From contig NC_087245.1 in the NCBI RefSeq assembly GCF_037042905.1, positions 5,706,001-5,770,000 of the forward strand: a DNA stretch of 64,000 nucleotides. The letters are read 5' to 3'. Positions 18,667 to 62,715 of the stretch are shown piece by piece. The stretch's first letter is position 1, and every line of letters begins with the position of its first letter. The position numbers were made by a program, and so were the translations under genes. A model generated the notes under the pieces. It ran no database searches. It was not told the origin of the DNA and worked only from the letters and a program-made list of their open reading frames with translations. Source of the DNA: Lytechinus pictus. Lineage: Eukaryota.

Positions 18667-19071
18667 AGGGGTGGTCCAGGCTGGAGATATTTATATCTCA
18701 ACGAATAGAGTAAAATTCACAGAGCAAAATGCTGGAAATTTGAACAAAATCGGATAACAAATAACGAAGTTGTTGAATTTTAAAGATTTGCATTATTCCG
18801 GTGAAACAGTTATAGGCATGTCTTCATGAATATTCATTAGGTGAACTGATGATGTCATATCCCCATTTGTTCTTTTGCATTTTATCATATGAAATATGAA
18901 ACGGATTAATTGCTTTAATTATTTATTGCCGCAACTTATTTCATCATAATGGATACATATCATTTACACATGTATGAAAAAATGAAACAATTATGATTTC
19001 ATAACATAAGAAAAAGGAAAGTGGGGATATGACATCATCAGCCCTCCTAATGAATATTCATAACGATGTGC
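18667..19071. mobile_element. Truncated TTAA-AGG (Kolobok-like) MITE of a second family
   Basis: TTAA|AGGGGTGGTCC start; internal inverted repeat CTGATGATGTCATATCCCCA / TGGGGATATGACATCATCAG; right terminus not found. Confidence 0.55.
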
Positions 19072-22000
19072 TGAGATGTGCTTCAGCCGACGTTCCTTGA
19101 ATAGTACAGATAATATAATTCATGGAAGTAGAAGTAGTCAAGTTGGTGCTGGTAATGGTGGCGGTTAAGGCTGGGAATAAAAGTAGTATAAAAAAAATTG
19201 TAGTAGAAGAAGAAGTAGCAGCAGTAGAAGCAACGGCAGCGGTAGTAGTAGTATTAGTAACAGGAGTAGTAGTAGTGATGGTGGTAGAATTTTAATTTCA
19301 ATTTGATGGTATTTTACATAATTAAAAGGCAGATTTGGATGCAAGCACGGTCTATAAGAAATTGCAATAATTCAAAATAGTCATAAAAAAGGTTTGATTT
19401 TCACACGAACGAAAGTAAAATAAAACAAAATAACAAAAACTAAAGACATTACGTCAAATGTAAATACCTGGGTTGAAATATTCGCTATAGCAGTTGCAGT
19501 AATATTATGGTAATCGCTTATTCTCATTAAACAAAAAAATAGGCATGCATGGTTACACCCGCATGGAACGCCTCGCGTCACAGTGCGCACACTTTTTGGT
19601 TTGGTTACTATATAATATGCTTCGACTGCGGACACTGGCGCATCAATCGAGAGTTTCTTAGATTGAGGGGGTTTTTAGGGGGGGGGGGTGCTTTAAGTAA
19701 ATTTTGGTTAAATAATTGTATTATAAATGACATTGTATATTTAACATCGAATGCCTTTCTATATCTCTAAGATTTGACTTTTTGCACGCTTTCTATAGAC
19801 CTTTTATCATGCATACGCATTATGAAATTTTAGGTAATTGCATAAAGTTATTAATAATTTAATTTGTTTATTTACATGTATGAAAAATGGTCATTGTTAT
19901 GATATACGGTACTGTATTTTTCAGCTTTGTGTATACTTATCGTTAAAGCCATAGGAAATCAAAATTCTGTGTACGCATACATTGACCAATAAAAGAATCT
20001 TGAAAGACATTTTAGCTGCCTCACTTCGCTCGCTCATGAATCTTTCTAACAACGCTCTCTTATATGCAGCACCATATTCAAACAAGTATGCTAAATAAAA
20101 TTAAAAAGCATGATAAGTAAACTTGAACAGGATACGCAAAGTGAATGAAATTATACGACAACTATATGTGTCTTTAAGAACATCTTTTCAACAAAGGATA
20201 ACGTCATAAATAAAAGGTGTGTTTATATAGATGAAAATGAATTAGTTTGAAGATCATCACCTATCTTTTCTTGCATGAATATCCCTTTCTTTTTCCCTGC
20301 ATAGATAGTGTTTTAACGTTGAAGTAAGAATACCTTTATCCTAAGAAAATCGAACAGAGAAAAAAAAATGGAACCATCAGCCAAATTCTAGATTATGTTT
20401 AAAGCTATAATCTTTTCTTATATAAATTTTAGATAGGTAGAACTCTATTCATTTCTCGCATATTTTTTTAGGGAAGTGTCAATGCTCCAATTCGTTACCA
20501 CGCACCGCCAGATAATTTCCCAAGCGAGTGTGAATTTCGAGATTGATGGGCTTGTTGGTCTAAACCAACATCTTATAATTGCTTCCATAAATCTCTCTTC
20601 ATCCGATGGGTGGTTTTTAAGAAATGAAGAAGTAAATCAAAGAAAGGAAAAGGAATCAGCCGTTTCGGATTGGATGTCATCGTCTAGGGATGAATTAGCT
20701 TATAAATATTTGTTTAAGCACATTTAGCGCGAGTAGGCCTATCTTCAGAAGATGTGAACATAGAGCACAGATTTAGAAAAAAAAACTGATGAGTGTGGAT
20801 AACTCCCAAAAGGGACCTTATTCTTTCGGCAAGGAATTAAAAAAAATACATATAAATTTGGTTTAAAAAACACTGCAAAAGTGCCAAAGTGCCCTGGTCA
20901 CAAGAAAAAATAATAATTACAGTATGTTAAAAGTAAGTTGGGTCATATTTGACTTACCACTGGTATTTTTTTAAGAGAACGTAATAACGAACACTTTAAT
21001 AATTTATAGATACAATCGAATATAATATCATACAGGAAATAGCTGTAAGGAAGTAACACAGACAGGGGCCATTATCAACAAACAATACAAATGCCTGCAA
21101 TAAATTTCATTAAAAAGAAAAGTTACAACCGTAACCGATCGCAGAGCTCAGTCAGATTCATGGTGAGACATGTCTGTAGATAGGTCTATAACAATCAATC
21201 AGCGTTAAACGGCCGAGTCTGGTTTAACATTCAATTTTTTTAACTTAAATTATCATTTTAGAGCATTCTGCTGCAATCTTTATGTTGTTCCTTTTCCTGA
21301 ACAATTCCTCGTTGGTGACGTGACCCCATCCAAAGTCCATTGTTGGAACTTCATTGAATAAATATGCAAGTTCCGTGACCAACTTTACTAAAGTAGACTT
21401 GCTAGAGTTGATATAAGTCACTAGATTTTGCTCGCAATAAAAGAGAAATGGATAAACAATGGATTTTGCTATAATTTTTCTCAAATTTCAGATCACATGT
21501 CAGGGTAAAGTTCGGTTATCATGGTGTTGTGTTGTGGCCTGGACGAAATAATTTTTATTTTGATACTCAACCGTCAGGTTCTAAACCTGTCGAATTTATA
21601 GTAACAAAATAAACAGGATACATCTCATTTCGTCAAACGCTGTTTTCGACGATGTTGATCAATCCCTTTGTAATTTTGTAATCTGAAATTCACATTAGAA
21701 TAAGATATGAAGTTTGAGCATCTATAATGCGAATTATAAATTGTTATTATTACTATTATCATCATCAACTTCATCATTTATTTATTAGAATAATTATATT
21801 CATCAGGTAAAAAAAGATCAGCAAAAAGCTGTTTTTCATCAATGACCTGATGAAAAACAGAATCAAGATTACAACAAAAGTCATCAATACCATACATGTA
21901 AATTAAATCAAATTCTGAGTTATTACTTAGGGAAAGCTTAGTAACATATAAATAAACAAATATTTCAACATAAATGATAACATGAAAAGACTACAATTTT

Positions 22001-22679
22001 TAAAGTTATGAGAACGGGAAAAATGTCGATATAAACTACAAATCGTATGATTTACATCATATTTATTTATCATTGTTGTTGTTTAAATCATTATCATCAT
22101 CATCTTAATCAATTAGCGTTTTGCAACACAGATATAGAATATATCCCTTCAATAACCTGTTCACTTTGTTCATTATTGTGGGCCTACTGATTTTTCCCCG
22201 ATTCATTTTAGACTAAGCAAACTGGACTAACTTAAAATTAATTAAATCGGCTTGAATCTGCTAATGTTTTAATACATCAGCTGCTAACTGATCACACTGT
22301 ATGATTCGCTTCAGAGTCATTTTTCCTCACGTTTTTCTTCATTTGTGTGTGGGTGTGTGTGTGGGGGTGTGAAAATGAGTGTTTCCATCCACTGATTATC
22401 AAGGATTGGATAACTTTCATGATTGTTTTTTTTTCATGTTTCTAGTTTCCTTTATTTCATTTCGATTCAACATTACACAAATATGAAATAATACCCATAC
22501 AAATCAATACAAGGGAATATACAATGTAAGTAATATAACCATACAAAGGAAGTAGATAAATGTTTTCGGTAGGCAATAAACAATTATGATAATAATACAA
22601 TGGCATGTACGATGAGGGTGAAACAAACTGTAGAACAATCTTGATTAAACATCTGCAAGGGTATTTTTATTTATCGTTT

Positions 22680-22942
22680 TAATGAAATAAAAGTTGAGGA
22701 AATGGAGGGATCCACTGACAAGTAGGGCTTGTTAAATGTGGATCCCTCAAAGAATTTGATAAAAATAGATTAGTATATGTATAAGTACTGTATAAAATAC
22801 GAGAAGCAGGGGGAAATAAATAAAGTTGATATGATGGTTGATAATGGAATATGAAGTTATTGAAAGGAGAATGAAAGAAAGAAACGTAAACGAGATGATC
22901 GGGTGGTGCCTATGTGTATAGGTGAAAGAGGAAGAGGGGAAG

Positions 22943-22976
<34 letters not shown>

Positions 22977-24760
22977 TGGGGGGGGGGGGGGGGGGGAGAG
23001 GAAGAGAGATAAAAAAAATGAGGGAAGGAAGGCAAAGTTGGGTACCGATCGCTCAATTGGAGTCGCTTTATATGCAGGGAATATGATTCGATAATTTGTT
23101 TTTTAGCTTGATTTTAAAACAATTCAAACTAGCGGAATTTATAATGTCATTGCTGAGAGAGTTTCAGTATTAAGGACCGTAAAAAGTAATTGTTTCTGTG
23201 CAAAGATGGTGCGGGTACGGGGAAGATGGAAACGGTGCGACTGTCGGGTTGGGTAACTGTGAATGGTGTTAGTTTTGTAAACATGTTCGGTGTACATTTA
23301 TGTTCAATTTGTACATGAATTGCCCTGTATCAAAAAGAAACAAATCATCGGTATTAGAACGAGTAGGAACATTATTAAAGGACAAGTCCACCCCAACAAA
23401 CAGTTGATTTGAAAAAAAAAGAGAAAAATCCAAGAAGCATAACGCAGAAAATTTCATCAAAATCTGATGTAAAATAAGAAAGTTATGACATTTTAAAGTT
23501 TCACTTACCCCCCCAAAACAGTTACATGTACATCCTAGTCGGTACGCAAATGAGAAGACTGATGACATCATCTACTCATTATTCTTTTTGTATTTTATTA
23601 AATGAAATATTATAATTTTCTCCTCATTGTCAAGTGATATAAAGATTAATTTCTCCCTGAACTTGTTAAATTAGCATTATTTTATTACCAGTACTGTATG
23701 GTTCAGTCAAGATGGCCCTTATTGCCAAATCTGTAAAAAAATGAAATACTGGATGATTCAAACAATAAAAAACAAAAGAAATAGTGAGTGAGGGACATCA
23801 TTGACTGTCTCATTTGCATGTCACTGAGTTGTGCACATAACTGTTTTGTGAAAAATAAGCGAAACTTTAAAATGTCATAGCTTTCGTATTTTACATCCGA
23901 TTTTGATGAAATTTTCAGCCTTATGCTAGTTTTATTTTTCTCTATTATTTTATTCAATTCAAAATTTCTCTGGAAATGACTTGACCTTTAAAGATCCTTT
24001 TGGAGAATAAATATCTTGTCAGTGAGAATTTTGTAAGCACTACGCCATACCAGTATTCCATAGCCAAAATACTGAAGTATTAGTGTAAAAAGTGTTGTTT
24101 TGAAAAAAAAATGTCTGTTTATTCATTATACCAATATTTCGCGATATAGTTTTTGATATATTAAGGATGTGAATGTTTCGTTTCAATTTATCGTCAATCA
24201 TGAGCCCTAAGAATTTAGTTGAATTGACTCTGTTGAGAGGCGTATCGTCTAAAAGGATATCACCTGGTAGATTTTGCAAAGTATTACTAAATAACATAAA
24301 ATTTGACTTTAGGATGTTCAAAGATGTTTTTTGGCTTTAACCCACTGCACTACACAATTTATTTCAAGATTTGTAGTAGAAAGAAGCGTAACCGGGTTAG
24401 CATGAGTATAAAAGAAGTTGGAGTCGTCTGCAAATTAGATGAAAGATAGAACATCAGAAGATTTATAAAAGTCGTTTATGTATATATATTAAATAAAAAG
24501 GGGCCAAGAAGGCTTCCCTGTGGAACTCTGCAACTTATTGGTCGTAAGGATGAATTATGATTATGTATTTGTACGAATTGTTTTCTATTTCATAAATAAT
24601 TCCTGAACCATTCCAAGGCTTTCCCTCTAACGCCATAGTGTGACAACTTTACTAATAGGATATCATGGTTAACTGTATCAATAGCCTTGGAAAGGTCCAA
24701 TAATATTGCGAGAGTGTTAATGCCGATCAATGACATGTGATAGTGTATCAATTCATTTTG
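22680..24760 (-). mobile_element. 5'-truncated decayed CR1/L2-group LINE, split by a Kolobok-type MITE
   Basis: Minus-strand RT remnants [29 protein letters not shown]-like at ~24425-24440, TKFLGLMIDDKL, GQFMYK; hairpin-containing 3' end near 22700-22750. Confidence 0.85.
23379..23987. mobile_element. Kolobok-type MITE, full-length copy in opposite orientation to 1722-2318
   Basis: TTAA 23375-23378 and 23988-23991; starts AGGACAAGTCCACCCC, the reverse complement of the 2318 end. Confidence 0.85.
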
Positions 24761-24849
24761 ATATTGCTTCAGTTGTATTATGATTTGATCGAAAGCCAAA
24801 TTGCGATTGACAAAAAAGATCACGTGTTTGCTTAAGAAGTCTGTCATAT

Positions 24850-25175
24850 TTTGTTGCTCGCTTTTCATTGCATTCATGGATCAGCTCTCCAATACAATCT
24901 TTCTTTTATCATGTTTATCAATTATATACCCACTATGTCTCTACGTTCTTCAACATCTCGTTTGCTTGTGTTTCCAAAAGTTTCAAAAATCTTTTGCTCA
25001 TGCGTGCCCCATAAGGTATGGAACAAACTTCCTGAAGACAATAAAAATTGTATCTTTGTTGAGTCTTTCAAAAATGTTCTTAAAACCTTTCTTTTTACTT
25101 CTTAAATTATTTTATGCGCCTTGAGCACTCTTCATGGTGGATTTGGCGCATTATCAGTCACATGTATTATTATTG
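24850..25175 (+). mobile_element. L2-type LINE 3' end fragment
   Basis: Peptide remnant LRS...VPHKVWNKLP...FKNVLKTFLF, then tail GCGCCTTGAGCAC...GGCGCATTAT...TATTATTAT. Confidence 0.7.
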
Positions 25176-25886
25176 GCTGCCAAAAATGTTTTGATGCCTA
25201 ATAAAGACCATTATTATTATCATTATTATTGATTTGTCTTGAATCGTAAATAAACATACATTGGGACCTTAGATAAGGAGAATGTAAAGAAAATATATTT
25301 GTAGTCCAAAATTAGTTGCCTGTACACGAACATAACAAGTGGGAAGTAATACATGTATAGTTCCGTACATACTGAATATATATTCTTCTTCTTCTTCCAG
25401 AGTAAGTGCTACTTCAAGGTGATGAAGATAAACGCACTGGTTATCTGTTATTCTTCTTGTAGCTTTATGTTTGACACGCTAGATTCAATTTCAGCTTTCC
25501 TCATCATGCTCATTAACATTTTTTCTGTGGGGTGAAATATAATTTAGCTCTAATTTTCTTTAGGTTTTTTTTTTTCATTTTCTGTCTTTTTAATCATAAT
25601 TCTGTTCAATTTATTCCATGCATGTCTACAGAACGAGCACATCCTGCTTTTTGACTTTTCGTCTGGGCTTTAGATCATTCTTGAACGACTTGCCAGTACC
25701 GCGGGCTGTCTATTCTGATCAGGGAGTTTACCCACTAGAGGGAGAGGGAGAGAGAGAGAGAGAGGGAGGGTGGGGGAGGGGGTTTGGGAAATATAAAGGA
25801 GAGAGATATTAAGAGAGAGTGATGTGGAGAGAGATGGTGCGAGAGAGACACTCGCAGACATGGACTGACACATGGAAAGGGCATCA

Positions 25887-26036
25887 CAGGGGCCGCGGAA
25901 GCGGGAGGGGCACTTTTTTCCAAAACCGTGTACAAAAACGTAAAAATGACCATATGATTGTGATATTTGGCATGGTCAGCCCCTTCCACTTTTGGCTCAG
26001 CCCCCCCCCACTTTGAAAACCGTTCCGCGGCCCCTG
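25887..26036. mobile_element. Small poly-G MITE (inverted sister copy at 52376-52576)
   Basis: TIR CAGGGGCCGCGGAA / TTCCGCGGCCCCTG. Confidence 0.8.
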
Positions 26037-26189
26037 CATCAGACAAAGTCATGGGTCGCTGGGTGGTTTAACAAGTGGCGGGGGGTGGGGGACTGACCAT
26101 TTACAAAATCACAATCAGATCGCAATTTTTTAAAATTCACGTTTGTTGGAAAAGTGGCCTACCGAACCCTGAAAAAGGGAGGAAGGTCG

Positions 26190-26448
26190 GATAATAAGTG
26201 CGCAGATATAACGTCCTTAAGTCGTATTATTACCTTGGCTTTATAGCCCCGCTACCCTTAGACATGTTAGAGCGCGGAAGCATTTTAGTAATAAACCTCC
26301 GCCAGGTACCCATTTACCTTCCTTGGGTTGAGTACACCATAATGTGGATCAATTTCTTCCCAGAAGAAGTTACGTCATTGCTGTGATTCGAATCCACTAT
26401 CCTCTGTTTCAAAGTCAGAAGACTAATCGACTGGGCCACAACGCTCCG
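26190..26448 (-). mobile_element. tRNA-derived SINE
   Basis: Minus strand GGAGCGTTGTGGCCCAGTCGATTAGTCTTCTGACTTTGAAACAGAGGATAGTGGATTCGAATCACAG head, then body, ending in a GCGCACTTATTAT-type tail. Confidence 0.7.
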
Positions 26449-27275
26449 CAAATAAGTCCGCTGATGAAGGATGGAGGGGCGAGGATTTAACTTCTATTGA
26501 AACATCAAACATCTCTATCCATGAAATTTACCGTATTTATATATGAGATTCTAATGGGGTATTCTTTATTTCTATACATGCACGTTTTCAAAAACTGGTA
26601 CCCTGTATAAACATACACCCTCCCCTAGTATCCCTCCAAAATAAATCGTTAAGTAAACCTCATATGATGTGCACCTTCACTGTTCCAACCCACATCGGCA
26701 ATCATCCGTTGAATAAAAAGTATTTGTTCAAATCTCGGAGCTAAGCCATTCCATTATAATCATTAATCTTATTATTTTATTATCGACACTACTGTTATAA
26801 CAATTATCATTACCAAAGGTATATCGGGGGGGGGGGGGGGGGTCAAAGGTCGGCATCAGCCCTATTGGCGGCGCGAAAAAAAGAGGGGAAAGAGATATAG
26901 GAACAATAAGTGGAAGGAAAGGAAAAAGAAGAAGAAAGATGAGAGAAAGAACAAAAGTAAATGAAATTTAGCGATTAGAATAATTACTTCTGCTTCAAGA
27001 TCGCATCGCCTGGTTATTTAGATAGGCCTACATAATCCTGCTGAATAGTATAACATGGAACTCATACTGTTATCAAGTCAATTTACAACAAAACTATCTG
27101 CACGCTAATCTAAAATGAGTTTAGCTCGCGCTTCGCACCCGCATTATTGGTTAGTAAGATACCTATCATCTTCGAGTCCCTGCAAACAGTCCTCAAACTG
27201 TATCTTTTCAGGTCAGTGAATCTGCAAAATTCAGTTTGCGCATTGTGCTCGATTTTATATACTCATTTTTTGTGT

Positions 27276-27773
27276 GTCTTGCCTGCATAGCTGAGCGTGA
27301 CTTTAGGTACCGCTTTTTTCGACGGCGGCGTCAATACTGAAATCTTAACCAAAATGTAAAACATAACTTAGAAAGAATATGGACCTAGTTCATGAAACTA
27401 GGACATAAGGATAATCAAGTATATCACTGATAATCGTACATGTGTTACAGGTCGCATGATTAAGGTCAAAGGTCGTTTAGGGTCAATGAACTTTGACCAT
27501 GTTTTTGGGCTTCAGCATTGAAATCCTTACCATGGTTAACTTTTTCAAATGTTATAATAACTTAGAAAGGATATGGACCCAGCTAATGGAACTTAGACAT
27601 AAGGGTAATCAAGTATCACTGATCATGATCCACACCACATGATCAAGGTCCGAGGTCATTTAGGATCAATGAACTTAGCATAAATGTGTTTTGGGGGATA
27701 ATTAATCCTAGTCAGGACTGCTGCTATATCGAATCGTGTAATGCAGGCAAGACTGCCAGAGGCGTTCCACTTG
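27276..27773. mobile_element. Non-autonomous Helentron/DINE-like element with internal tandem repeats
   Basis: Subterminal inverted repeat GTCTTGCCTGCAT / ATGCAGGCAAGAC, T-rich flanks, two internal units containing AAGGTC(A/C)(A/G)AGGTC; same family at 63662-64000. Confidence 0.65.
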
Positions 27774-30594
27774 TTTTTTGTTGTTTGCTTTTTTTAATGT
27801 TACGTTTTCAGGTCGGAATATTGCAGCTCGTGCTTTGCACAAGCATTATTTGATTGGCGAGATATCATGTTCATTATTCCCTACAATTATTACATTGTCC
27901 CTTTTTACGTCAGTACATTAAATTTTAATTTTGTTAGATTAAATACCAGCCTATAATGTTGTTGGATTTTTCTGTATGTATTGGATTCAAATCAGTTCAT
28001 GTTTAAATGGAATTCGGTTTGGAGAACATGTTGATGGACAATCATTCCGACCATGGACATGCGGCATATTTAATTTCCTATTCAAAATGCGGAATTATAT
28101 TTAATTGAGATTAGCTTTCCATTCATTGAGCCTGTGCATGTGTGTTTGGATGTGTATGTAACTTTATGTGTGGTGTGTTTGAAGTGAACACTTAATGAGG
28201 GAAATGATACCCTTTTGTCGATGAAGGCCATTCAATATTTTGATTCCAGAAATGCTTCAGAGTATGTAATGAAGGGTTTTAATATTGACTGCTTGGTAAA
28301 TAGTGGTAGTCTTACGTCGTTTTTCACCCTTTAAAGTTTAATCGATTCCATGCATTTAATGTATAGGCCTAATGACTGGTATACAAAACATATCATTGCA
28401 CGGACAGTCATAAAAATTATCAATGTTGTTCAGGTTTACTCTTAATACGTTATTTTTTTCATTGTAGGATATCTGATCACTTAAATTTGTTCCTCATACT
28501 TTTTTTTTTACTTCAGCAAACCAACCTCCAGACCGAATAGAGGACTGCTGCAATCATAGTCAAAGTCGTATAACCACTGTGGATAATTCTTTTATGATAA
28601 AGAGAAATACAAAAATATATAGAATAAGTTAAGAGAAGATTATTCACGTTCATAAGAATAACCGTTCTTCAAATCACTCGACAATTGCAAACAAACTTAA
28701 AATAAAACTAAATTATATTAAAATTTTACGAAACCAGCATGACCACTATAGACATAACAAGTTCTCCTAGATCATTAACAGCCTTTTGAACTCTATTGAT
28801 TAAACGTATAAACTAAACTTTCCTCCCTGAATAGGTTGGATTTGGAAAACACACTCTATTTACGTTGCATCGTTTAGCTTGTATTTTACTGAATAGATTT
28901 ACAATGTATAAAAAATAATTGGGGTTGTGCCTGAAAATTTATATGATTGCAATATGTTGCACTGTTCTAAAAAGTACTTTCGATGAGAGAAGTCAGCTAA
29001 CATGGCTAACTAAAAGTAACTGCATCAGTAGCATGCAATTTCAAATGAATCTCAATCTTTAATCACCTTGCAATTAGGGCCTAACTCTTGCCTTTTTTTA
29101 TATCGACATACTTTAGATTCCACTTTTTCAAGACGGTTCATATTCCTGTGCTGCATCAGCGTGTAACTGTGAACTTCCAATCTTGCTTCCACATCACGTT
29201 TTGATCGTGTTATATCCAACACCTATAGGATATCATCATCAGCGGTTACGACGATTCATCATTTCTCCTGGAGATGATGATGCTATGATTTTCACTCTCA
29301 CTCAAATAGACGGGCAGTCTTTGTCTAAGGTCAATTCGGATTGCGTCATTCCATTTATTTTTTTTTCCAACCAGTTGTTCGCCTTCTATGAGCCATCTTT
29401 TCATTAATTTTCTCTTCACATAAATGTGAAGCCCGTCGGCCTATAGGGACGACTTTAGCAGTTTAGTGAAAATGACAGTGTTTATGATGATGGTGGTGGT
29501 GGTGATGGTGATGATGATGATAATGGGCAATATCTTGCCGATGCTAAGATGAAAAATCATACAAATTTACTTGATATGTTGTCTGAAAACCGTCTTTACG
29601 TAAGGAAAGAGTGTTGCTCCAAATTACTAAGTTTTATCTTTCCACAAGAGGTCTGAACAACAAAGACTGTATGGCGTAGATCACGTTCATTAATACGTAA
29701 CAAGGGACGTAGATATCATGACTTAATCTGGAGAACGCTACTTAATTGATATCAGGAGCCAGATTTGCAGAAATTATTTCCACAAATAATGATCATTCGG
29801 TGTCCCCTGGGTTCTACATGAATTGGATGTAAACCCTTCACTGCATTAGTCTGATGCATTCTCGTTGTTCTCTCCACGTCTCCATAGATGATGTGCTTAG
29901 AAAGACAAAATATTGGGAAGGGTTATTCGTCAAAAATATATTATCGCCCCTTTATAAGATTAAATCACTATCTCCTACAGCCGATAATACGATGGGATAA
30001 TTTGATACTCACAGGATGGGCGTACATTTTTACATGCTGTATATCTTCACCTACATTACATGGTAAGCCAGATATTTGTTGACTAAAGTTGTAGATATTA
30101 TTTAATTATACTTGAACTTGAAAGCCATATATCTTGGACTGCCTCTATTATGTATCTATATAGCAAACATTGTGATCGGTTTATTCATTTGACCTAATAT
30201 GTAAGAGTATTACCAAAATTGCAGTTTCGATGATTTCTTTTTCTTCATTGAGAGTTTTTAATCCTTTCACCCCTCCCTTTTTATTTCTTGCTATACAACT
30301 CGTATTTATCAATGTAATATTTGTAATGAGTTCGTAATGGAAATGTAAACATGTATTTGCTTTTGTTGTCATTTTTGTGTATGAGGTTTTTGCGTTTTTT
30401 CTGTTCTTAAGGAGACTTGTACGTACAGTCAAACTTGCATTTTCAAAAATAATGAATTGAAAGAAAATATCTATTGCAGTCCTTTGATTTTATATAACAG
30501 TATAATGGTCTATATGTAGGCAATGTTAATCATATTCAAGTTGTGGCTCTGGCCATGGATGATTATTATTATTATCAATTCAGAATATGTTTCA

Positions 30595-31756: not shown

Positions 31757-32801
31757 GTCACGGAACCTCCCTGAAGCAAGTGCGCTGAAGGCTACCGTCC
31801 ATTTCGCGGAATCAACAACCTCTACTATGGGGGATCCCTATATCAACGAATGGATACCGGATGCAAAAAACCTGTTACCAAATTACTTTACGAGGAAAGA
31901 CAGCAAAAAAGATGAACGGAGATACACGGATGGCATCCTTGTATACTTACATCTTAACAAAGCAGCTGGTTCAACGACTAAATCGTGCCTTTCTAAGGTG
32001 GCAAGAAAACGTTCTGTTTCAGGATCAACTGCCGTCTTGTCCAGCACTGCAAGGGTACAGATCCAAAAAAAGCTTGAACATAAAGTTAATTATAACATTC
32101 TCATGGGTGGTTATGCATTCGGTATATGTGATGCAGCTATGGATAAAAATTGCTCGTATTTTACTATATTGAGGGATCCATACGAACGGTTGTTATCATC
32201 GTTCACATACTGCAGGAGAGCTGGTACGGACCAGACCTGCCAAGGTCTAAGTCCGTGGGATGTAACTCTTAAGGAATGGGCCATCCATCAGGGAAGTTAT
32301 TTCTTCCGACAGTTGCTAATGAAACCTTATTTCTGTAACCCAAACCAACACTACACAAACTGGAGCCTCAATGGTATTCCTCATTCCAAAGGTACAACCT
32401 TCTCTCGTTCTCCATGCTGGTTCCGAGAGAAGGTCATCCTGAACCGATCTCTGTCCCCAGCCCTAATGGACAACCTACTAACCTACTGTGTAGAACACCT
32501 AGAAGAGTGGTTCTCTGTCATTGGGCTAACCGATCACTACGACCTCACTCTCGCCATGCTTGAAAAAGTGTACCAAATACCCTTTCAGAAAGCATGTACA
32601 GGGAGTGAAATCAACGTAAGTAACTATCACAACTTGGCAAACGATACCAACGTAAACAAGACTGAGACCGTTTCAGACTGGAAAAGAGAGCTTCAAGAAG
32701 ATCCAGAAGTATATGAAGCTCTTCGAGGAGATATAGTCATTTATGAAAAAGCAAAACAAATATTTGAACGTCAAAAGTTGGCATTCTTTGCAAGAAAATA
32801 G
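31757..32801 (+). CDS. Golgi carbohydrate sulfotransferase exon 2, catalytic domain (Sulfotransfer_2 / HS-OST / Gal3ST-like fold)
   Basis: Acceptor TTTTCCTCACATTTACAG|G; open frame to TAG at 32801; 5'-PSB motif YLHLNKAAGST, 3'-PB motif FTILRDPYERLLSSFTY, C-terminal FSVIGLTDHYD and DIVIYEKAKQIF motifs. Confidence 0.9.
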
Positions 32802-44733: not shown

Positions 44734-44737
<4 letters not shown>

Positions 44738-45088
44738 CAATGGTAGGCGTAGCTTTAATCAAGGTTCCCCAGAGCTATCTACCCTTTGGAAAAATTGGTG
44801 ATGCCGAAAAAATGTCTCTGACAGATTTTCGACACTATACCAATTACCACCCGACAAAGGAAATTATAATTGGTATAGTGTCGAAAATCTGTCTATCTGA
44901 CGGTCAATCGGATCGGGGTCGCCCTAGCCACTAACCCGTCTCTGTGGTCTAGTGGTTAAGGCACCGGCGTTCAAAGCTGGGGGCCCGGGTTCGATTCCCG
45001 GCAGAGACATTTTTTCGGCATCACCAATTTTTCCAAAGGGTAGATAGCTCTGGGGAACATTGATTTAAGCTACGCCTACCATTGTTCT
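44734..45088. repeat. Palindromic (foldback) element carrying a tRNA-like gene, embedded in (TA)n
   Basis: 87-bp arms 44734-44820 / 45002-45088 (2 mismatches); inner perfect 27-bp arms 44820-44846 / 44867-44893. Confidence 0.9.
44938..45009 (+). tRNA. tRNA-like gene, 72 nt class I cloverleaf, anticodon TCA (opal suppressor-like; functionality unknown)
   Basis: Acceptor GTCTCTG/CAGAGAC, D arm GTCT/AGGC, anticodon arm CCGGC/GCTGG with loop GT-TCA-AA, variable GGGC, T arm CCGGG-TTCGATT-CCCGG, followed by T6. Confidence 0.7.
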
Positions 45089-53127: not shown

Positions 53128-54265
53128 CATGGCCCTGGGATGCGGGGGTGCTTCAGCATTCCCAAGGTTTACCTGGGGGTGCTGCGTGTATCATTCTAAT
53201 GCCCCACCCCTTTCTTTCTGCTTGTCAAAAATGGCCTTCATTTTTTAGTGAAAGTTTTTTTTTAAATAATTTTTGCTTGTCAAATTTACATCACCCCAGT
53301 TAAACTATTGTTCCCAGGGCCCTTCCAAACACCCGAACATGTATCCCCCCTCTAATCCTGTATAGGGATGGCACAACCTTGTCATAGGAAACATCAGCTT
53401 ATGATAGATTCTGAGCTGAAGATCCAGTGACTAAATAGATGTTTCTTTATTCGGATCGAATATTTTCCCGAAGGCATAATGCATAATGCTACCTCAAGGG
53501 CCTGTTGCAGAAAGATTTGCGTTTCAATACAACTAAAAATCAATTACAAGTCACTAACCGTGTATCATATTGGTATAAGTAAAGTTTTTATGACTTTTGA
53601 TGGTAAGTCTAGCTTTTTGCAACGGGCCCGAGCAATACCGAAAATACCGAAGAGGTCACGTGCCTCGAATTTTCAACAATAAGGAGAAAAGAGCGAGGTT
53701 GGTGTGTAAGGTAAGGGCCACGCCCATTTTCTTCTCCATGTTTCTCACTGGTTTAATTTACCATTTTCATTTTTTAATGTTTTTATTTTTCGATAGGGGG
53801 GGGGGTTGACATTTCCTTGATATCCCTACATGTAGACACGCCACCCTTCCGCACTCTAGTGCTTGTAGAATCATTTGGTGTCATGTGAATCATACACCCT
53901 AAGATTTACTATGCACCATGGAGTTGGAACGTGGCACTAAATAGGCCGGCCGAGTCATGAAATATCCATTGGAAAGTGCTATAATACGACAGTGGTGTTG
54001 ACCTAACACCGTGAATTAATTCTACAGCGTGTCCCAAGAAAATTTTAATGGCAATCTAGGTGGTATAATATTAGAATTACAACAATATATTGCTTATATT
54101 CTTCCTACGCCCGTAAACTACAATTCATGATTGTTAGATCTATTTAAGCATGTTAAGTGATGCAAATTATATTCATTCACGTTCAGCCATGGGCATAAAT
54201 CAGCAAGGATTTCCCCCTTTTCAGGACTTGGGGATGACCTATTAATTCGACCCTGTGATTATTAA
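53128..54265 (+). repeat. Copy 2 of the diverged local duplication (copy 1 at 2822-4155)
   Basis: Collinear with copy 1, including the same three MITE insertions at the same positions. Confidence 0.9.
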
Positions 54266-54645
54266 GAATTGTTTGTAAGAGCAATTACAATCATGTATTT
54301 AGTTATTTCCTCTTTAAATATATTCATAGCATATAATGATTAAGAATATTCCAGAATGTCTCAGTAAAGCTTCTTTAGGCATGCCCATTTCTAAGGGACT
54401 TCAAAGTCGATGGTGATATGAATGAATGATATGAAAAGTTGCGCAATCAAGAAAATTATGCCTCTCTTAGACCTAACGAATTCACCAAATGAGTTTAAAT
54501 TCGATATCGCATCAAACTTCATCAAACTTTCAAGATATGTAACTAAGTAGATACCAAAGTAGAAGAATATCTTTTAATTGGCAAACTATATCTAAGTGGA
54601 GTTAGCAGCGCCCTCATTTGACAAGAATATTGCATAAACTTCCAA

Positions 54646-54967
54646 CGAGGCGTTGTGGCGTGCGCCTGTAATCCAAGCTGTTGGGAAATTACAAATTGAT
54701 GCAGAGGTTCGAGCCCTGGGGCCTGTTACGTTGCAGAAAGAGTTGCTTTTAAGCGCAAGTCAAAATATCAAGCGTAAGTCCCGAATGCGGGTGCTTCATT
54801 GGCTGAAAATCAAGTTGCGCAAGATTTTTTGAGTTGCGTTTGATTGCAACTCTTTCTGCAACGGGCCCCTGGTCACGTCTTTTTGATGGTGACGTTAAAG
54901 GTCGGTCCCAGACGTAAATAACCGTATCTGATTGATACGCGTCTGACAAAACTCAAATACACACACA
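54646..54967 (+). mobile_element. Candidate 7SL-derived SINE (~170 bp once the inserted MITE is removed)
   Basis: Head GGCGTTGTGGCGTGCGCCTGTAATCCAAGCT resembles the 7SL/Alu 5' domain; B-box-like GGTTCGAGCCC; (CA)n tail; TTCCAA on both flanks. Confidence 0.7.
54719..54868. mobile_element. Harbinger-type MITE inserted in the candidate SINE, CTG target duplication
   Basis: CTG|GGGCC...GTTGCAGAAAGAGTTGC...GCAACTCTTTCTGCAACGGGCCC|CTG. Confidence 0.8.
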
Positions 54968-56135
54968 TTCCAAAAAACAAATTTTCAAAAGACGTGAATC
55001 TATTCGAAAATCTAAAAAAGTAGATTTTAAGCTGCACTTTATTCAAAATCCATGTCATTTTCATCAAATTCGGCATAATTGTAGATGAATATATTCTGAG
55101 GACATTAAAACATTAAAAATATTGGGTCCATGTGCTCGTTTTTGAAATATCAGTGTCTAAACTGTTACGAGTTGGTTTGAAACAGCCCATAATGCGCGGA
55201 AAACGTGCAAAAGTCTGATAATACCATCCACAATGTCTTTTTGTCTTTTATTAGAACAAATGTGCTTATCTAATACACCCCAAAACGCGCCAAAAGCTTT
55301 GTATCTATGTGAGGAAAAATTCCAAACCACTCTACCATTTATTCAAACTCGTGGTTATATTCGTCATACTTTGCAGCCCTACAGAGTAAAGTATTTTTTA
55401 AAATTGTAGAGGTATCTAAAAATGGTCCACGGAATAATTCCAGTTTATTAGCTTCATAAGGATCTGCAGTTACTGCAGATAAGGAGAAAAAATCAGCTCA
55501 TACCTACAGCTGATTAATAACCTGTTCATCCATTGTGACGTCAGCGCGCAGAGTGTAAAATATGCGCAGATCATGATGCACACAAACTGGAACGTCCTTA
55601 AAGACAATACTAGAAGCTTCCAGAATAGTGGAAATTTATATAAGCTGGCAGTTTCTTCATAATATCAGATCAGAACTCAGAGGTTCACACCAGACTTTAT
55701 GTCAGAGTATTGTTTATTTCCAACTGGAATACAACATTTATCTTCTGTGGAATTATTTACACGCTATCAATGAACTGTTTGCAGTTACTTTGAAGGGAAA
55801 TTCTCAGTTCTCATCGAGATCATCAACCTGTTTTAATGTAGCTTTTCAACCCATGGATTGCTGGAATTGACTGTTAATCATCATCAACATCGTCTTCACA
55901 GACATTTCAACTTGTTACAGTGACTCTTGTGATTCATCATGTTTCAACATCAATTTCGTCATCGCCAGCATTCATCATCATCATCATCATCAGTGTACGG
56001 AAGAAGAAGGCAAGCCTGTCGAGACTTCCGGTCGTTCCTTCTGATAGTACTTGTTCCAACTTGACTATTTTAAATGTCTTGTAAAATTACATGCATGCAT
56101 GTTGCGTGGAGGGTGGACGATTCTTTTTATTTTTT

Positions 56136-58943
56136 TTAGGGAAGAATTTGATGATGGCAAGACCAATGTTTGTCCAGCCTATGTTTGAAAGAGTCAATAG
56201 AGGGTGCCGACACAACAGATGGAGGAAGATTATTCCATAGGTCTACAACCCTCTGACTAAAACTGTTCCTCCTTAAAGTGGTATAAGACCTCTGTTTAAA
56301 CAATTTTAGATGATGTCCTCTTGTTGTGTCTTGAATGGCAGGGATGAAATATACAGAAGAGTCAACATTAACAAGTCCATTCAAAATCTTAAATACCTCG
56401 ATCATGTCTCCTCTTTGTCTTCTGTAGTGTAGTGAGTACATTCCAAGGCTTACAAGTCTATCCTGGTATGGTAAATGTCGCAATTCTGGAATTAGCTTTG
56501 TAGCTCTTCTCTGTACCTTTTCGATTTTAACAGCATCCTCCTTGAACCTTGGATGCCACACTACATTTCCATATTCCAAAATAGGACGTACTAATGTCTT
56601 GAACAAGGTTGGCAATGTTGTACTTGAGATGACAGTAAAAGTTCTTTTGATTAGTCCAAGCATCTGATTGGCTCTATTCACGATATGTGCTACATGTAAG
56701 TGGAATTTCAGCTCCTCATCAATCATGACTCCAAGATCCTTTTCTACAACAGATACTTGTAAAATCTGGTTGTTTATACTGTATGTTGTTCTAGTATTAA
56801 CTCTTCCAATATGCATGGTTTTGCATTTAGCCTGGTTGAAGGAGAGTTGCCAGGATTGGGCCCATAAGGTTGCTGCGTCCAAGTCATCCTGTAGCGAGGT
56901 TTGCTGGTTTACAGAGACATCACCATATATCTTAGTGTCATCAGCATAGATTTGAATGTCATTACTAATCACATTTGGGAGGTCATTTACATATAAGACA
57001 AAGAGTTGAGGTCCGAGAATACTCCCTTGAGGCACGCCACTAATCACAGGGGTCCATTGGGAGAAATCCCCACGAATCGACACTCTCTGTACACGTCCTA
57101 CTAGAAAGGCTTTGATCCACTCAAAAACTCTGTGCTCGATGCCATATGCTTGTACTTTATTAAGTAGTCGCTGATGAGGTACAGTATCAAAGGCCTTGCT
57201 AACATCAAGATATATTACATCTACAGGTCTCCCTTTATCCATAAGATATGTCCAGTCCTCCATTTGTCTCATAAGTTGCGAAATACATGACCTTCCAGAG
57301 GTAAATCCATGCTGGGCATTGTGTAACAATTTATTACTGTCAATATGGTCTATTAAAACATTGCGTATAATGGCCTCCATGACTTTGCCTATTACTGAAG
57401 TTAAACTTATGGGCCTGTAGTTACCAGCAAGCTGCCGAGACCCCTTCTTATGTACTGGGGTTACATTTGCCATCTTCCACTCCACTGGTAAGACTCCTTC
57501 GTTTAGAGATCTTTGAAAGATGATCGCTAGTGGGAGACTTATCTCACATGATAACTCCTTAAAAACTCTTGGATGGAAATTATCAGGTCCGGCAGACTTA
57601 TTTACATTCAATTTCTTTAATTGCTCTTCCACCATTTCTTGTGTAATGTTGGTATTTCTCAAGGAAGGTCCATCAAATTGTTTATCAGGTTTAGGTAAAC
57701 TACTCAGGTCTTCCTTTGTAAAAACTTTGGAGAATGTTGTATTAAAAACTTCAGCAATATCAGTATTTGTGGTCACTTTCTCACCATTCTCCGTCACCAG
57801 TACATCAACCCCTCTTCTTGTCTTCACTTTGGAGTTAACATAACGCCAGAAGTCCTTGGAGTTATCTTTAATAGAAAAAGTGAGGTTCTCTTCAAAGTCA
57901 GTACTAAGAGTTCTTGTCAGTTTTCTGAGAGAATTACTGACATCACGGTAATATTGAAAATCCTCCTGGTTGAGCGTTGACTTGTAACGTTTCCAAGCTC
58001 TGAGCTTTTTTTTACTCAATGCAACAGATTCTCTCGTCGAGTATACTTTCTTCTTTCCACTAGACATGGCTTTACCAACTGGAACATATTGTTTAATACC
58101 ACTATGCAAGTACGTAGAAAAGGTATGCCAAGATTCTAAACAGCTCGTATCTGATAAGCAATCTTCCCAATCTACATTAGCCATCATTAGTCTCATATCG
58201 TTATAGTTTCCTTTGTTAAACAAAAGTGATGAAGATTGTGTAAGATCAGAAGTGAATGACTCATAATCTGCTTCAAAATACAGGCAACAATGGTCACTGC
58301 GCCCAAGGGGTGAACCATAGCTAATGTCAGATATCAGTTCAGGTTTGTTTGTTATGACAAGGTCAAGAATGTTACAGTTTTGTGAAAGTCTGTAACGAGT
58401 TGGCTCATAAACCAGTTGGTGGAGAAACAGATCCTGTAAGCAGTTAAGAAAAGAGATAGCTGAAGCATTACGTTGGTTATTTACCACATGACAGTCCATC
58501 CAGTTTATCTCAGGATAATTGAAGTCTCCAACAATGATTAATGAGTGTGGTGATGAGATAGCTCTGAGTTGCTCTAGGTCACGTAGAAGACAATCATTGT
58601 TTTCCTTTGTACTAGAAGGACTTCTGTAAACACATATAACGATAACCTTTTCACCACTACTCAGCTCCAGATTGCAAGCAATTATTTCCTTAAAGCTAAA
58701 GCGGAAACCAAGCTCAGTCACTTTGATATCAAGTTTCACATAAACAGCAATTCCTCTGATTTTCTCCAAGTCCAAGTTTGAGATGAGAGTATATCCTGGG
58801 ATTGCAATCGAAGGATCTTGAAGTCTGAATCTGCTATACTTAGGAGTCACTTCAGTCAACAAAATAATATCCAAATTTTGTTGTTCAACTATCATTCTCA
58901 AATCATTGTATTTATTAATCAAGGAGTCACAGTTCGTATACAT
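56136..58943 (-). CDS. CR1 ORF2: APE-like endonuclease + reverse transcriptase, 935 aa uninterrupted
   Basis: YTNCDSL, LTE, VYRSP, VGDFNYP, SDH (EN); KSAGPDNFHP, NYRPISLTS, QHGF, YLDVSKAFD, GVPQGSILGP, YADD (RT); CR1-type C-terminus TRGH..KL, FSQRVVDLWNNLP. Confidence 0.97.
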   Translation of the reverse strand: MYTNCDSLINKYNDLRMIVEQQNLDIILLTEVTPKYSRFRLQDPSIAIPGYTLISNLDLEKIRGIAVYVKLDIKVTELGFRFSFKEIIACNLELSSGEKVIVICVYRSPSSTKENNDCLLRDLEQLRAISSPHSLIIVGDFNYPEINWMDCHVVNNQRNASAISFLNCLQDLFLHQLVYEPTRYRLSQNCNILDLVITNKPELISDISYGSPLGRSDHCCLYFEADYESFTSDLTQSSSLLFNKGNYNDMRLMMANVDWEDCLSDTSCLESWHTFSTYLHSGIKQYVPVGKAMSSGKKKVYSTRESVALSKKKLRAWKRYKSTLNQEDFQYYRDVSNSLRKLTRTLSTDFEENLTFSIKDNSKDFWRYVNSKVKTRRGVDVLVTENGEKVTTNTDIAEVFNTTFSKVFTKEDLSSLPKPDKQFDGPSLRNTNITQEMVEEQLKKLNVNKSAGPDNFHPRVFKELSCEISLPLAIIFQRSLNEGVLPVEWKMANVTPVHKKGSRQLAGNYRPISLTSVIGKVMEAIIRNVLIDHIDSNKLLHNAQHGFTSGRSCISQLMRQMEDWTYLMDKGRPVDVIYLDVSKAFDTVPHQRLLNKVQAYGIEHRVFEWIKAFLVGRVQRVSIRGDFSQWTPVISGVPQGSILGPQLFVLYVNDLPNVISNDIQIYADDTKIYGDVSVNQQTSLQDDLDAATLWAQSWQLSFNQAKCKTMHIGRVNTRTTYSINNQILQVSVVEKDLGVMIDEELKFHLHVAHIVNRANQMLGLIKRTFTVISSTTLPTLFKTLVRPILEYGNVVWHPRFKEDAVKIEKVQRRATKLIPELRHLPYQDRLVSLGMYSLHYRRQRGDMIEVFKILNGLVNVDSSVYFIPAIQDTTRGHHLKLFKQRSYTTLRRNSFSQRVVDLWNNLPPSVVSAPSIDSFKHRLDKHWSCHHQILP

Positions 58944-59072
58944 AATTTTCAGTTTTCTCCTATACCTAGTGCTATTTACAACTTCTCCTGTATGTTCTTT
59001 ATTATTAAGTTTTTTTCCTTGTCCATTACTATCTATTCCTCCAATGTCGTCATCTGGGATTAACTGTGGACG

Positions 59073-60778: not shown

Positions 60779-62715
60779 ATGGCTACATTTGATGTTAACG
60801 AGTTTCTTGCAATGACAGAATTGTCAGATGATAATTTGAAGTCACTGAAAAAAAGCAATTTGACAACACTTTGTGATCATTTGGGTGTATCTCTAGCCCC
60901 AGCTTTAAAGAAGGCAGAGATAACTGACTTGTTAGCTAGTCACATGAAGCTTACAGAGGAGTCTGAAACTTCTGTCATGTTTTCAAATGATGCTCAGATT
61001 AAACTGGCAAAATTTGAAATGGAAAATCATCAAAAGAAAATCATTTTCTCTTTCTCGACATTCTCTTTGATTTTTGTTTCCATTTCAAATTTTGCCAGTT
61101 GAATCTGAGCATCATTTGAAAACATGACAGAAGTTTCAGACTCCTCTGTAAGCTTCATGTGACTAGCTAACAAGTAAAATCAAAGAAAACCTTGAGAAGG
61201 AAAGAATCAGAGAAACATTGAAATTGAGAAAATGAGATGGAGTAATAGTTAAATTTGAAAGAAATTGAGTTAGCTCATGCAAATACTAACTCTGCTAAAT
61301 ATAAATCTCCACAAGACATTGATGTGGCGAAGGACATTCGCCTTCTGCCAAAATGTGATGAAGAGGGAGTTGATACATATTTTGTGTCATTTGAAAAAGT
61401 GGCCAAGAGACTGAATTGGCCTGAGGAATACTGGACTGTTCTCCAAAGTGTTTATGTTGGAAAGGCTGCAAAAGTCTATTCTTCGCCTTCTGAAATGCAG
61501 TCATGTGACTATGCTACAGTAAAATAAATAATTCTCAATGCATATTAGTTGGTACCAGAAGCGTACAGACATAAATTTAAGAACATGCAAAGACAATCAG
61601 GCCAGCCTTATGTTGAATTTGCTAGAGAACAAGAAATGATGTTCGATAAGTTGTACATCACTGAAAGTTGACAAAGATTTGGTTCACCTTAGGAAAGTTG
61701 TGCTCCTAGAAGAATTAAAAAAAGTCTTTTGGCATTAAATCTCACTTAGATGACCATATAGTTACTGAAGTCAGTAAAGCAGCCATAGTAACTGATGAAT
61801 TTGAGGTTACACATAAAGGTAGTGGAGATAGGCCTCCTTTCAAGAATTATTGGAGGAAGAAAGGTAAAGGGTCATTTGAATCCCACAATAAACATGGTGA
61901 GGGAAATATGCTAGCAAGGACAAAGACAACAACAAGAATTAGCCTCGTGGGCACACAGAATCAACCAAAAGGTCCGAGGGTCGAAATTCCAAAATTTGTA
62001 CTCATTGTCATAAATTGGGACATTAAAAAAAATAATGTTGGAAATTGGTTGGAATGCCAACCAAATTTAAGAAAGACATGGGTTTTGTCAACCAAACAAG
62101 TGTTCCCTCGATGGAGTTTGTCCCATCAGAGCCCATTCGATGTTGAGAGTATTTCTCTGTTTTTTTGCTGATAAAGTCAAACAGGTTGATGAAAGCTTTA
62201 GAAGCTTCTTGTATGATGGTGAGGTATCCCCTTGTTCGGCTGGTGCTGCTGGTAGGTCGGTGGTGGTCGTTAGGGATACAGGGGCTGCACAGTCCCTGAT
62301 GGTGCCAGGGGATTTGGCTCTCCCTCAGGAGAGTTCAGAGAATGCCAAAGTCTTAATTCAAGATATTGGCCCAAATTTCATGTCGGTTCCTTTGCATAAG
62401 GTCGACTTAAAATTGTGACCTAGTTAGTGGTCCTGTGACTGTTGGTGTCGTTCCAGAATTACCCATGGAAGGGGTTGATTTCTTGTTAGGTAACGACTTG
62501 GCTGGAGATGGTCTAGTGGTTTCGGAGAAGCCGGTTGAGGTAGCTGAAACTTAATTGTTGCAGGAAGATTTTCCAGCGATTTTCCCGGACTGTGTTGTCA
62601 CTAGGTCTCAGACTCGTAGAGCTGAAAATGATGATGCGGATTCTGCTTATGTAGAGGAGAGTACTGATGTCTGGTTAGCTGAAACCTTTTTCAAGGATTT
62701 AAATGGGGATAATGT
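60779..62715 (+). mobile_element. Decayed Gypsy (Gmr1-like) gag and protease; RT/IN and 3' LTR absent
   Basis: Capsid-like IRLLPKCDEEGVDTYFVSFEKVAKRLNWP, LVPEAYRHKF; zinc knuckle remnant CTHCHKLGH..CW; protease RDTGAAQSL; FLLGNDLAG; many stops and frameshifts. Confidence 0.9.

What the first reader, a model, noticed from the sequence alone, without database searches (positions are those of the whole stretch)
54640..54973. Candidate 7SL-derived (Alu-like) SINE in an invertebrate genome
Seen: removing the CTG-flanked MITE (54719-54868) leaves a ~170 bp unit, CGAGGCGTTGTGGCGTGCGCCTGTAATCCAAGCTGTTGGGA...GAGGTTCGAGCCCTGGTCACGTCTTTTTGATGGTGACGTTAAAGGTCGGTCCC...CAAATACACACACA, bounded by TTCCAA on both sides (54640-54645, 54968-54973). 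Known: the first ~40 nt follow the 7SL RNA/Alu 5' domain (GGCGCGGTGGCGCGTGCCTGTAGTCCCAGCT). 7SL-derived SINEs are established for Euarchontoglires and hagfish, and I know of none from echinoderms. Inference: the TSD, microsatellite tail, B-box-like GGTTCGAGCCC and non-7SL 3' half point to a retroposed chimeric SINE, not a 7SL gene. The GACGTTAAA..GGTCCC stretch recalls conserved SINE central domains (Deu/Meta type; from memory, low confidence).
Basis: partly seen in the sequence, partly recalled or inferred. Interest (0 to 1): 0.85.

Follow-up and report, generated by a model that had tools for sequence, protein, structure and literature searches.

The report
Sea-urchin SINE with a 7SL head
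This is one broken copy of an abundant short repeat in a sea-urchin genome whose first ~40 bases match the signal-recognition-particle (7SL) RNA; it is likely a retrotransposon that joined this Alu-type front end to an ordinary tRNA-type element, a design I found reported only in a few vertebrates.

Summary
Confirmed. In Lytechinus pictus, 54646-54967 is a 169-nt element split by a 150-bp MITE. Four public runs of two species labels all show the empty site (one TTCCAA) and the MITE-free head-to-body join. Summed depth over head and body is hundreds of times that of the adjoining flank in the two DNA-like runs, so this is a dispersed family. The head matches the Rfam SRP model at 32 of 38 positions (E 1.5e-4 alone, below gathering; no tRNA hit) and the hagfish SINE1 head at 25 of 26. 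The 7SL part stops near nt 45. A B box follows in register with three relatives that share the 3' half but have non-7SL heads, then the 5' end of the Deu domain (not Meta). Likely origin: a head swap onto a tRNA-Deu SINE. A 46-nt Alu domain is known to bind SRP9/14 and promote retrotransposition. One RNA run shows about 10-15:1 strand bias. Not tested: host 7SL gene, true copy count, partner LINE, Repbase/Dfam. The scan has noted this family before (23 notes, same genome); papers to 2026 list 7SL SINEs only in vertebrates.

The parts
54640..54645 (.). 5' target-site duplication TTCCAA
   Evidence: empty site with one copy in 4 of 4 runs (joint 54639->54968, 6 letters fit either side)
54646..54690 (+). 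7SL (SRP RNA) 5' Alu-domain-like head. Confident match 54648-54686. It holds the A-box-like stretch 54649-54658, helix 3, the UGUAA junction and helix 4
   Evidence: Rfam RF00017 model positions 4-41, 32 of 38 identical plus one inserted base, counted from the printed alignment; 25 of 26 identical to the hagfish SINE1-1_EBu head over 54649-54674, by eye; two-hairpin fold, z -0.98, so not unusually stable
54691..54706 (+). Linker of unknown origin. Many family copies carry 7 more bases (a repeat of the B-box core) between the linker and the body
   Evidence: Low posterior values in the Rfam alignment; no significant match to the heads of L001-L003; 7-nt insert tables 5c and 7
54707..54715 (+). 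Pol III B box (GTTCGAGCC), probably inherited from a tRNA-headed parent SINE
   Evidence: 6 nt separate the GTTCGA core from the body start, the same register as in L001, L002 and L003; the B-box consensus is recalled
54716..54718 (.). CTG, left copy of the MITE's 3-bp target duplication
   Evidence: joint 54713->54867
54719..54868 (.). 150-bp MITE inserted later. GGGCC ends and a CWG target suggest PIF/Harbinger type (class recalled)
   Evidence: Inverted arms 54729-54777 and 54815-54863; relatives at 3232-3359 and ~53495-53629; high depth with mixed flanks and CAG at the loose ends
54869..54871 (.). CTG, right copy of the MITE target duplication
54872..54908 (+). 5' end of the Deu domain (Inv/Nin part). 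Two private changes at 54883-54884 create a T5 run
   Evidence: 26 of 37 columns identical to the start of the AmnSINE1 Deu domain (28 of 37 with the family's majority letters), by eye against Fig. S4; no likeness to the Meta consensus there; majority letters table 3
54909..54959 (+). 3' body with a hairpin (54909-54945), candidate LINE-recognition region; partner LINE not found
   Evidence: z -1.81; shared with L001-L003; 0 of 25 predicted pairs show compensatory change; no match to LINE ends in the window
54960..54967 (+). (CA)n microsatellite tail
   Evidence: other copies run on in CA repeats (table 7)
54968..54973 (.). 3' target-site duplication TTCCAA
   Evidence: summed depth drops from about 600,000-710,000 to 430-790 across this boundary in X6 and X12

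Best explanation
This is one MITE-interrupted copy of a dispersed, multi-copy ~170-176-nt repeat with a target-site duplication and a CA tail, likely a SINE that arose when the first ~45 nt of 7SL RNA replaced the front of a tRNA-headed Deu-domain SINE, so that it would be transcribed by Pol III from a 7SL A box plus a tRNA-type B box and would be copied by an unidentified LINE. Shown: the multi-copy family, the empty site, the MITE-free form, the 7SL-like head, a 3' half shared with elements that have other heads, and strand-biased RNA. Inferred: template switching or recombination as the origin; Pol III transcription; LINE dependence through the 3' hairpin and CA tail; and, less surely (about 0.55), that the head binds SRP9/14 and so helps the RNA reach ribosomes making LINE protein, as the 46-nt 5' Alu domain does in human cells. 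This copy is likely inactive: the MITE splits it and it has T4, T6 and T5 runs that would stop Pol III.
For:: summed contig depth over the head (54660-54690) is 743,504 in X6 and 907,503 in X12, like the body (727,000-942,000), against 433-4,645 in flank bins other than one peak of 11,000-14,000; 103-123 contigs carry the family's letters at the diagnostic head and body positions, at 96-99.8% of depth. The empty site and the MITE-free joint are in 4 of 4 runs, 4 studies and 2 species labels. In RNA run X21 the element bins are biased to one strand (510:50, 790:66, 1908:140, 1993:162, 1695:114) and the MITE bins are not (251:345, 467:507, 484:567); in most stranded libraries this means sense RNA; 51 molecules end at 54655. 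SRP is the best Rfam hit and tRNA is absent at E<=10; 3 of 3 metagenome loci share the 3' ~95 nt (scores 120-148; 0 of 300 shuffles reach them) but not the 7SL part (46-257 of 300 shuffles score as well), with B boxes in the same register. Deu start. (PMC12199147): the 46-nt 5' Alu domain binds SRP9/14 and promotes retrotransposition; the authors suggest such a piece failed as a SINE for lack of a B box; 5S-onto-tRNA head swaps are described in Deu-SINEs.
Against: The 7SL match is short (about 39 nt confident) and below Rfam's gathering score. The host's own 7SL gene was not seen, because no genome is held. The tRNA origin of the relatives' heads is by eye only: ARAGORN found 0 tRNAs in 3 loci and Rfam gave no tRNA hit. 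No partner LINE tail was found, and the 3' hairpin has no compensatory changes in 4 sequences. The head fold is no more stable than shuffles. Summed contig depth is not a copy number, by the tool's own warning. 645 RNA reads at the 3' end come from what looks like one locus (agreement 0.87), so the strand bias could come from one host transcript. Human-like reads are filtered without notice, which may thin the head. The empty site could come from paralogous flanks, since the flanks are themselves a low-copy repeat.
Confidence: 0.85

Rival explanations
1. Same element, but the 7SL piece only supplies an A box and a transcription start. It no longer binds SRP9/14, and LINE recognition rests wholly on the 3' end.
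For: The 3' half already works with non-7SL heads (L001-L003). Helix 4 differs from the Rfam consensus (one inserted base, two changes). The 3' strand of the Alu domain is absent.
Against: The retained length matches the 46-nt unit that suffices for SRP9/14 binding. Helix 3, the UGUAA junction and most loop bases are kept. An A box alone would need only about 15 nt.
Confidence: 0.35
2. An ordinary tRNA-headed Deu-SINE whose worn head resembles 7SL by chance.
For: The B box and body are tRNA-SINE-like; the Rfam score is low (22.3 bits); a Deu-SINE (SINE2-3_SP) is known in sea urchins.
Against: 32 of 38 positions match the SRP consensus and 25 of 26 match hagfish SINE1; no tRNA hit; no match to the heads of the 3 relatives.
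Confidence: 0.04
3. A one-off 7SL retrocopy or pseudogene fused to a SINE fragment at this locus only.
For: Only one copy in 64 kb; short 7SL retrocopies are common in other animals.
Against: The head is as deep as the body in X6 and X12; the head-to-body joint is in 8-13 contigs per run and 964 reads; head letters are uniform.
Confidence: 0.02
4. Human Alu contamination, or horizontal transfer of a vertebrate SINE1.
For: The head is nearly identical to the hagfish SINE1 head over 26 nt.
Against: The body is Deu-type, not RTE or Alu; the element sits in sea-urchin DNA with a TSD and a nested urchin MITE; it is seen in 4 studies and 2 species labels. 7SL 5' ends are conserved anyway.
Confidence: 0.02

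Closest known systems
SINE1-1_EBu of hagfish (Kojima 2020, PMC7245038; main text parts 1-3 of 4 and supplement 1 read)
   Same: 7SL-derived head on the body of an older tRNA-derived SINE; microsatellite tail; 25 of 26 identical bases at the 5' end
   Different: The hagfish element keeps 7SL nt 1-96 plus the 3' end (a full Alu domain with 7SL's own B box), has RTE-derived body and tail and ~17-bp TSDs. This one keeps only ~45 nt, has a tRNA-type B box, a Deu start, a CA tail and a 6-bp TSD here
Alu, B1, Tu and Urop (PMC13023118, passages read)
   Same: 5' Alu domain of 7SL at the start
   Different: Those are 7SL with a ~183-nt central deletion, poly(A) tails and L1 mobilisation. No 3' 7SL piece or poly(A) here
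Deu-SINEs: AmnSINE1, EbuSINE1/2, SINE2-3_SP, Nin/Inv domain SINEs (PMC7245038 Fig. S4; PMC4824008, PMC5804259, PMC4758252 passages)
   Same: First ~37 nt of the Deu domain directly after the B box; precedent for a foreign small-RNA head (5S) grafted on a partial tRNA head
   Different: Only the 5' end of Deu is kept; the head is 7SL, not tRNA or 5S. SINE2-n_SP sequences could not be compared
SA46/AY46 engineered minimal Alu domain (Moldovan et al. 2025, PMC12199147; abstract and first part of the Discussion read)
   Same: About 46 nt of the 7SL 5' end
   Different: The engineered piece needs an outside promoter and poly(A)/L1; here a B box and another LINE-type tail are attached in nature

Membership tests
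SINE (SINEBase definition) | Short (<1 kb), interspersed, not tandem | tested here: met
   169 nt; mixed flanks at the loose ends, agreement 0.39-0.43. Some head-to-tail joints also exist in X12
SINE (SINEBase definition) | [quoted passage not shown] | tested here: inconclusive
   Over 100 distinct contigs per diagnostic position and depth hundreds of times the adjoining flank in X6 and X12 (organism B); 35-68 contigs at most such positions in X1 (organism A). No genome to count in. Earlier notes say about 1,000-1,600, not checked here
SINE (SINEBase definition) | >=60% identity to tRNA, 5S or 7SL over >=60 nt | tested here: inconclusive
   84% over 38 positions; beyond position 41 the Rfam alignment is low-confidence. 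The head seems composite; the host's 7SL was not available
SINE / non-LTR retroposon | Target-site duplication and simple-repeat 3' tail, no terminal inverted repeats | tested here: met
SINE / non-LTR retroposon | Transcribed by Pol III from internal A and B boxes | tested here: inconclusive
   Boxes present; strand-biased RNA and a pile of ends at 54655 in one run; the polymerase cannot be told from this
SINE / non-LTR retroposon | 3' end shared with a partner LINE | tested here: inconclusive
   No match within the 64-kb window; the genome's LINEs could not be searched
SINE1 in the broad sense (5' part from 7SL RNA; Kojima 2020) | 5' head derived from 7SL RNA | tested here: met
SINE1 in the broad sense (5' part from 7SL RNA; Kojima 2020) | Distinct from a plain 7SL retrocopy (uniform chimeric structure among copies) | tested here: met
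   Head-to-body joint in 4 of 4 runs; uniform family letters
SINE1 in the broad sense (5' part from 7SL RNA; Kojima 2020) | Head traced to the host's own 7SL gene | not testable with these tools
   No genome held; earlier notes claim it, unchecked
Alu/B1/Urop/Ebu1-1 architecture | 5' and 3' ends of 7SL fused by a central deletion, giving a full Alu domain with 7SL's own B box | tested here: not met
   The 7SL match ends near nt 45; what follows the B box is shared with non-7SL relatives. Not filed under this lineage
Deu-SINE superfamily | Deu domain after the head | tested here: inconclusive
   Only the first ~37 nt match (26-28 of 37, by eye); the rest of the domain is absent. This fits the Inv/Nin 5' part, whose own consensus I did not see
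MetaSINE superfamily | 66-bp Meta domain | tested here: not met
   No likeness to the Meta consensus (by eye)

The most novel reading that the evidence does not exclude
The first 7SL-derived SINE in an invertebrate, and a natural version of the minimal 46-nt Alu domain: a 7SL stub that lacks its own B box was rescued by a tRNA-SINE's B box and tail, uses SRP9/14 to reach ribosomes making a non-L1 LINE protein, and is still transcribed and insertion-polymorphic in a genetically tractable sea urchin.
Probability: 0.5. Interest if true: 0.78.

Novelty: new variant of a known kind. Interest (0 to 1): 0.65.

Why it matters
7SL-derived SINEs are described as extremely rare: supraprimates, hagfish and shrew moles as of February 2026. 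All share a central deletion that keeps both ends of 7SL. A sea-urchin family would be a further independent origin, the first outside vertebrates, built differently: only the 5' ~45 nt, the piece shown in 2025 to be enough for SRP9/14 binding and Alu retrotransposition. Relatives with the same 3' half and other heads give a natural control, so one can test directly whether a 7SL head improves LINE capture or is only a promoter.

Tried and rejected
No whole genome is held, so there was no copy count, consensus, 7SL gene or LINE library. BLAST and nhmmer of the window found no second SINE copy. Pattern scans for the head found nothing in viral or prokaryote contigs; the body pattern found nothing in prokaryote genomes and one chance match in viral contigs (L004; dropped). 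ARAGORN and Rfam did not call tRNA in L001-L003 (the best was a mascRNA-type hit at E 1). The neighbouring LINE (56136-59072, minus strand) ends in (GAT)n and shares no tail. Meta and UCON3 domains were rejected by eye. The E-value was set aside as inflated by the MITE. A mobile SINE-plus-MITE composite was rejected: depth at 54725 is only 1,864-3,116 against about 500,000 beside it, and MITE flanks are mixed. The run search listed no holder on record as RNA (no evidence either way). Motif searches in the supplements of PMC5786205 and PMC4758252 found only generic Deu-start matches (one file was not searched). The look-up of earlier findings by sequence and by place gave nothing. Literature searches listed no paper, by title or abstract start, on an invertebrate 7SL SINE; Repbase, Dfam, SINEBase data and most subscription journals are not searchable here.

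Full report
Host. A window protein (31827-32798) is 99% identical to a Lytechinus pictus protein and 64% to the L. variegatus one, so the window is from the painted sea urchin. No whole genome is held, so family-level evidence comes from laying four public runs on 54350-55250 (4 of 23 listed runs, about 6% of the RNA run read) and from three metagenome loci.

Observation. All coordinates hold: TTCCAA on both sides, CTG around a 150-bp MITE, and a 169-nt unit when the MITE is left out. One search shows that both duplications are real. The joint 54639->54968, with six letters fitting either side, is the site without the element; it appears in X1 (1 contig), X6 (2), X12 (2) and X21 (1 read). It may be an empty allele or a paralogous copy of the flank, which is itself a low-copy repeat; no record spans the whole filled stretch. 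The joint 54713->54867 is the element without the MITE: 8, 12 and 13 contigs and 964 reads.

A family. In the two DNA-like runs of organism B, summed depth is 743,504 and 907,503 over the head and 603,000-942,000 over the body, and falls to 433 and 790 in the bin after the tail. The tool warns that this is no copy number, and overlapping contigs inflate it; I read it only as 'many copies'. At the diagnostic positions 103-123 contigs carry the family letter, at 96-99.8% of depth. In X1 (organism A, which holds the stretch best) the contrast is 14,000-30,000 against 112. The window copy differs from the majority at seven listed positions (54682, 54688, 54883, 54884, 54922, 54924, 54939; 190 further rows were not shown). 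Many copies carry a 7-nt repeat of the B-box core. X12 also shows tail-to-head joints (54967 to 54649, 54652, 54662), that is, tandem copies.

The head. Rfam's best hit for 54630-54725 is Metazoa_SRP, 22.3 bits, E 1.5e-4, with no tRNA hit up to E 10. Model positions 4-41 match at 32 of 38 with one inserted base, at high posterior probability; after that the alignment is unreliable. The stronger score (E 5.6e-7) is partly an artefact of the MITE. By eye, 54649-54674 is identical at 25 of 26 bases to the head of hagfish SINE1-1_EBu as printed in that paper's supplement. The head folds into two hairpins as in the 5' Alu domain, but no more stably than shuffles (z -0.98). The host's own 7SL gene could not be checked.

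The body. All three metagenome loci share the 3' ~95 nt (79% mean column identity; 0 of 300 shuffles reach the scores) but none matches the 7SL part. Their upstream parts carry A-box-like and B-box-like motifs by eye, and their B boxes lie 6 nt before the body, as here. ARAGORN and Rfam do not call them tRNA, so 'tRNA-headed' is an inference; their host species are unknown. The first 37 columns of the body match the start of the AmnSINE1 Deu domain at 26 positions (28 with the family's letters) and do not resemble the Meta consensus (by eye). Papers describe Inv as the 5' part of Nin and Nin as part of Deu, with Inv listed for echinoderms. The last 60 nt form a hairpin (z -1.81) with no compensatory change in four sequences, then (CA)n. 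No LINE end in the window matches it.

RNA. In X21 the element bins are biased about 10-15 to 1 to one strand, while the MITE bins are balanced. 51 molecules end at 54655, and none of the six loose ends shown for this run lies at the element's 5' end. This fits transcripts that start at the head. Against that, 645 reads at the 3' end continue into one flank (agreement 0.87), so one locus gives a large share and could be a host transcript; human-like reads are also filtered. Pol III transcription is suggested, not shown.

How it likely works. Steps shown: a uniform head-body chimera, dispersal, TSD, later MITE insertion. Steps inferred: a tRNA-headed Deu SINE gained the 5' ~45 nt of 7SL by template switch or recombination, as described for 5S heads on Deu-SINEs and for the hagfish element. 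It kept the parent's B box, so the promoter is hybrid. A LINE recognises the 3' end and inserts copies by target-primed reverse transcription. Moldovan et al. 2025 show that a 46-nt 5' Alu domain binds SRP9/14 and promotes retrotransposition, and suggest that such a stub failed as a SINE because it lacks a B box. This family looks like that stub with a borrowed B box. Whether the head still binds SRP9/14 is open (about 0.55). This copy is likely dead: the MITE splits it and T runs at 54747, 54825 and 54880 would stop Pol III (terminator rule recalled).

Comparison and novelty. It is SINE1 in the broad sense but not of the Alu/B1/Urop/Ebu1-1 build, which keeps both 7SL ends. A 2024 paper lists SINE1 only in primates, rodents and hagfish; a February 2026 paper adds shrew moles. 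Nine searches listed no invertebrate case. Repbase, Dfam and SINEBase entries could not be searched, and an unpublished entry is possible (my guess: one in four). Supplement 2 of PMC7245038, the supplements of PMC4824008 and one file of PMC4758252 were not read and might hold related consensus sequences. The scan itself has 23 earlier notes on this family from other pieces of the same genome; they claim about 1,000-1,600 copies and a head from the host's own 7SL. I read them after forming this view, could not check those two claims, and do not count them as support.

Verdict. Real feature; new variant of a known kind; interest 0.65.

Noticed in passing
window 44734-45088: A 355-bp element with 87-bp terminal inverted repeats (97.7% identical), at the end of a (TA)n run, carries a 72-nt tRNA (44938-45009; Rfam 60.9 bits) with anticodon UCA. 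ARAGORN labels it tRNA-SeC, but it has ordinary length with no long variable arm, so it looks like a UGA-suppressor-type tRNA inside a MITE. An internal hairpin lies at 44820-44893.
   Followed up: no
window 56136-59072, minus strand: An open 978-aa LINE ORF2-like frame (endonuclease and reverse transcriptase motifs by eye, CR1/L2-like) ending in a (GAT)n tail near 55975; its 3' end does not match the SINE tail.
   Followed up: partly
run X12 laid on window 54350-55250: Tail-to-head joints (54967 to 54649, 54652, 54662) show tandem copies of the SINE; their letters suggest the family's 5' end differs from this copy's first bases (table 5c).
   Followed up: no
window 3232-3359 and ~53495-53629: The two other MITE relatives lie at the same position within a shared ~900-bp repeat (2954-3872 and 53228-54128, 76% identical), so they are one old insertion carried by a host repeat.
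   Followed up: partly
L002 ~77-436: An inverted-repeat element sits directly in front of, or inside, the A-box region of the related SINE's head (by eye): a second case of a MITE-like insertion at this lineage's head.
   Followed up: no
window 9275-10094, 60927-61175, 1718-2322: Long palindromic (foldback) elements of 820, 249 and 605 bp; the last has relatives at 23370-23991 and 15159-15367.
   Followed up: no
window 31827-32798: Single-frame 324-aa protein with a sulfotransferase-type Pfam domain (PF03567; family name recalled), used here to identify the host.
   Followed up: partly
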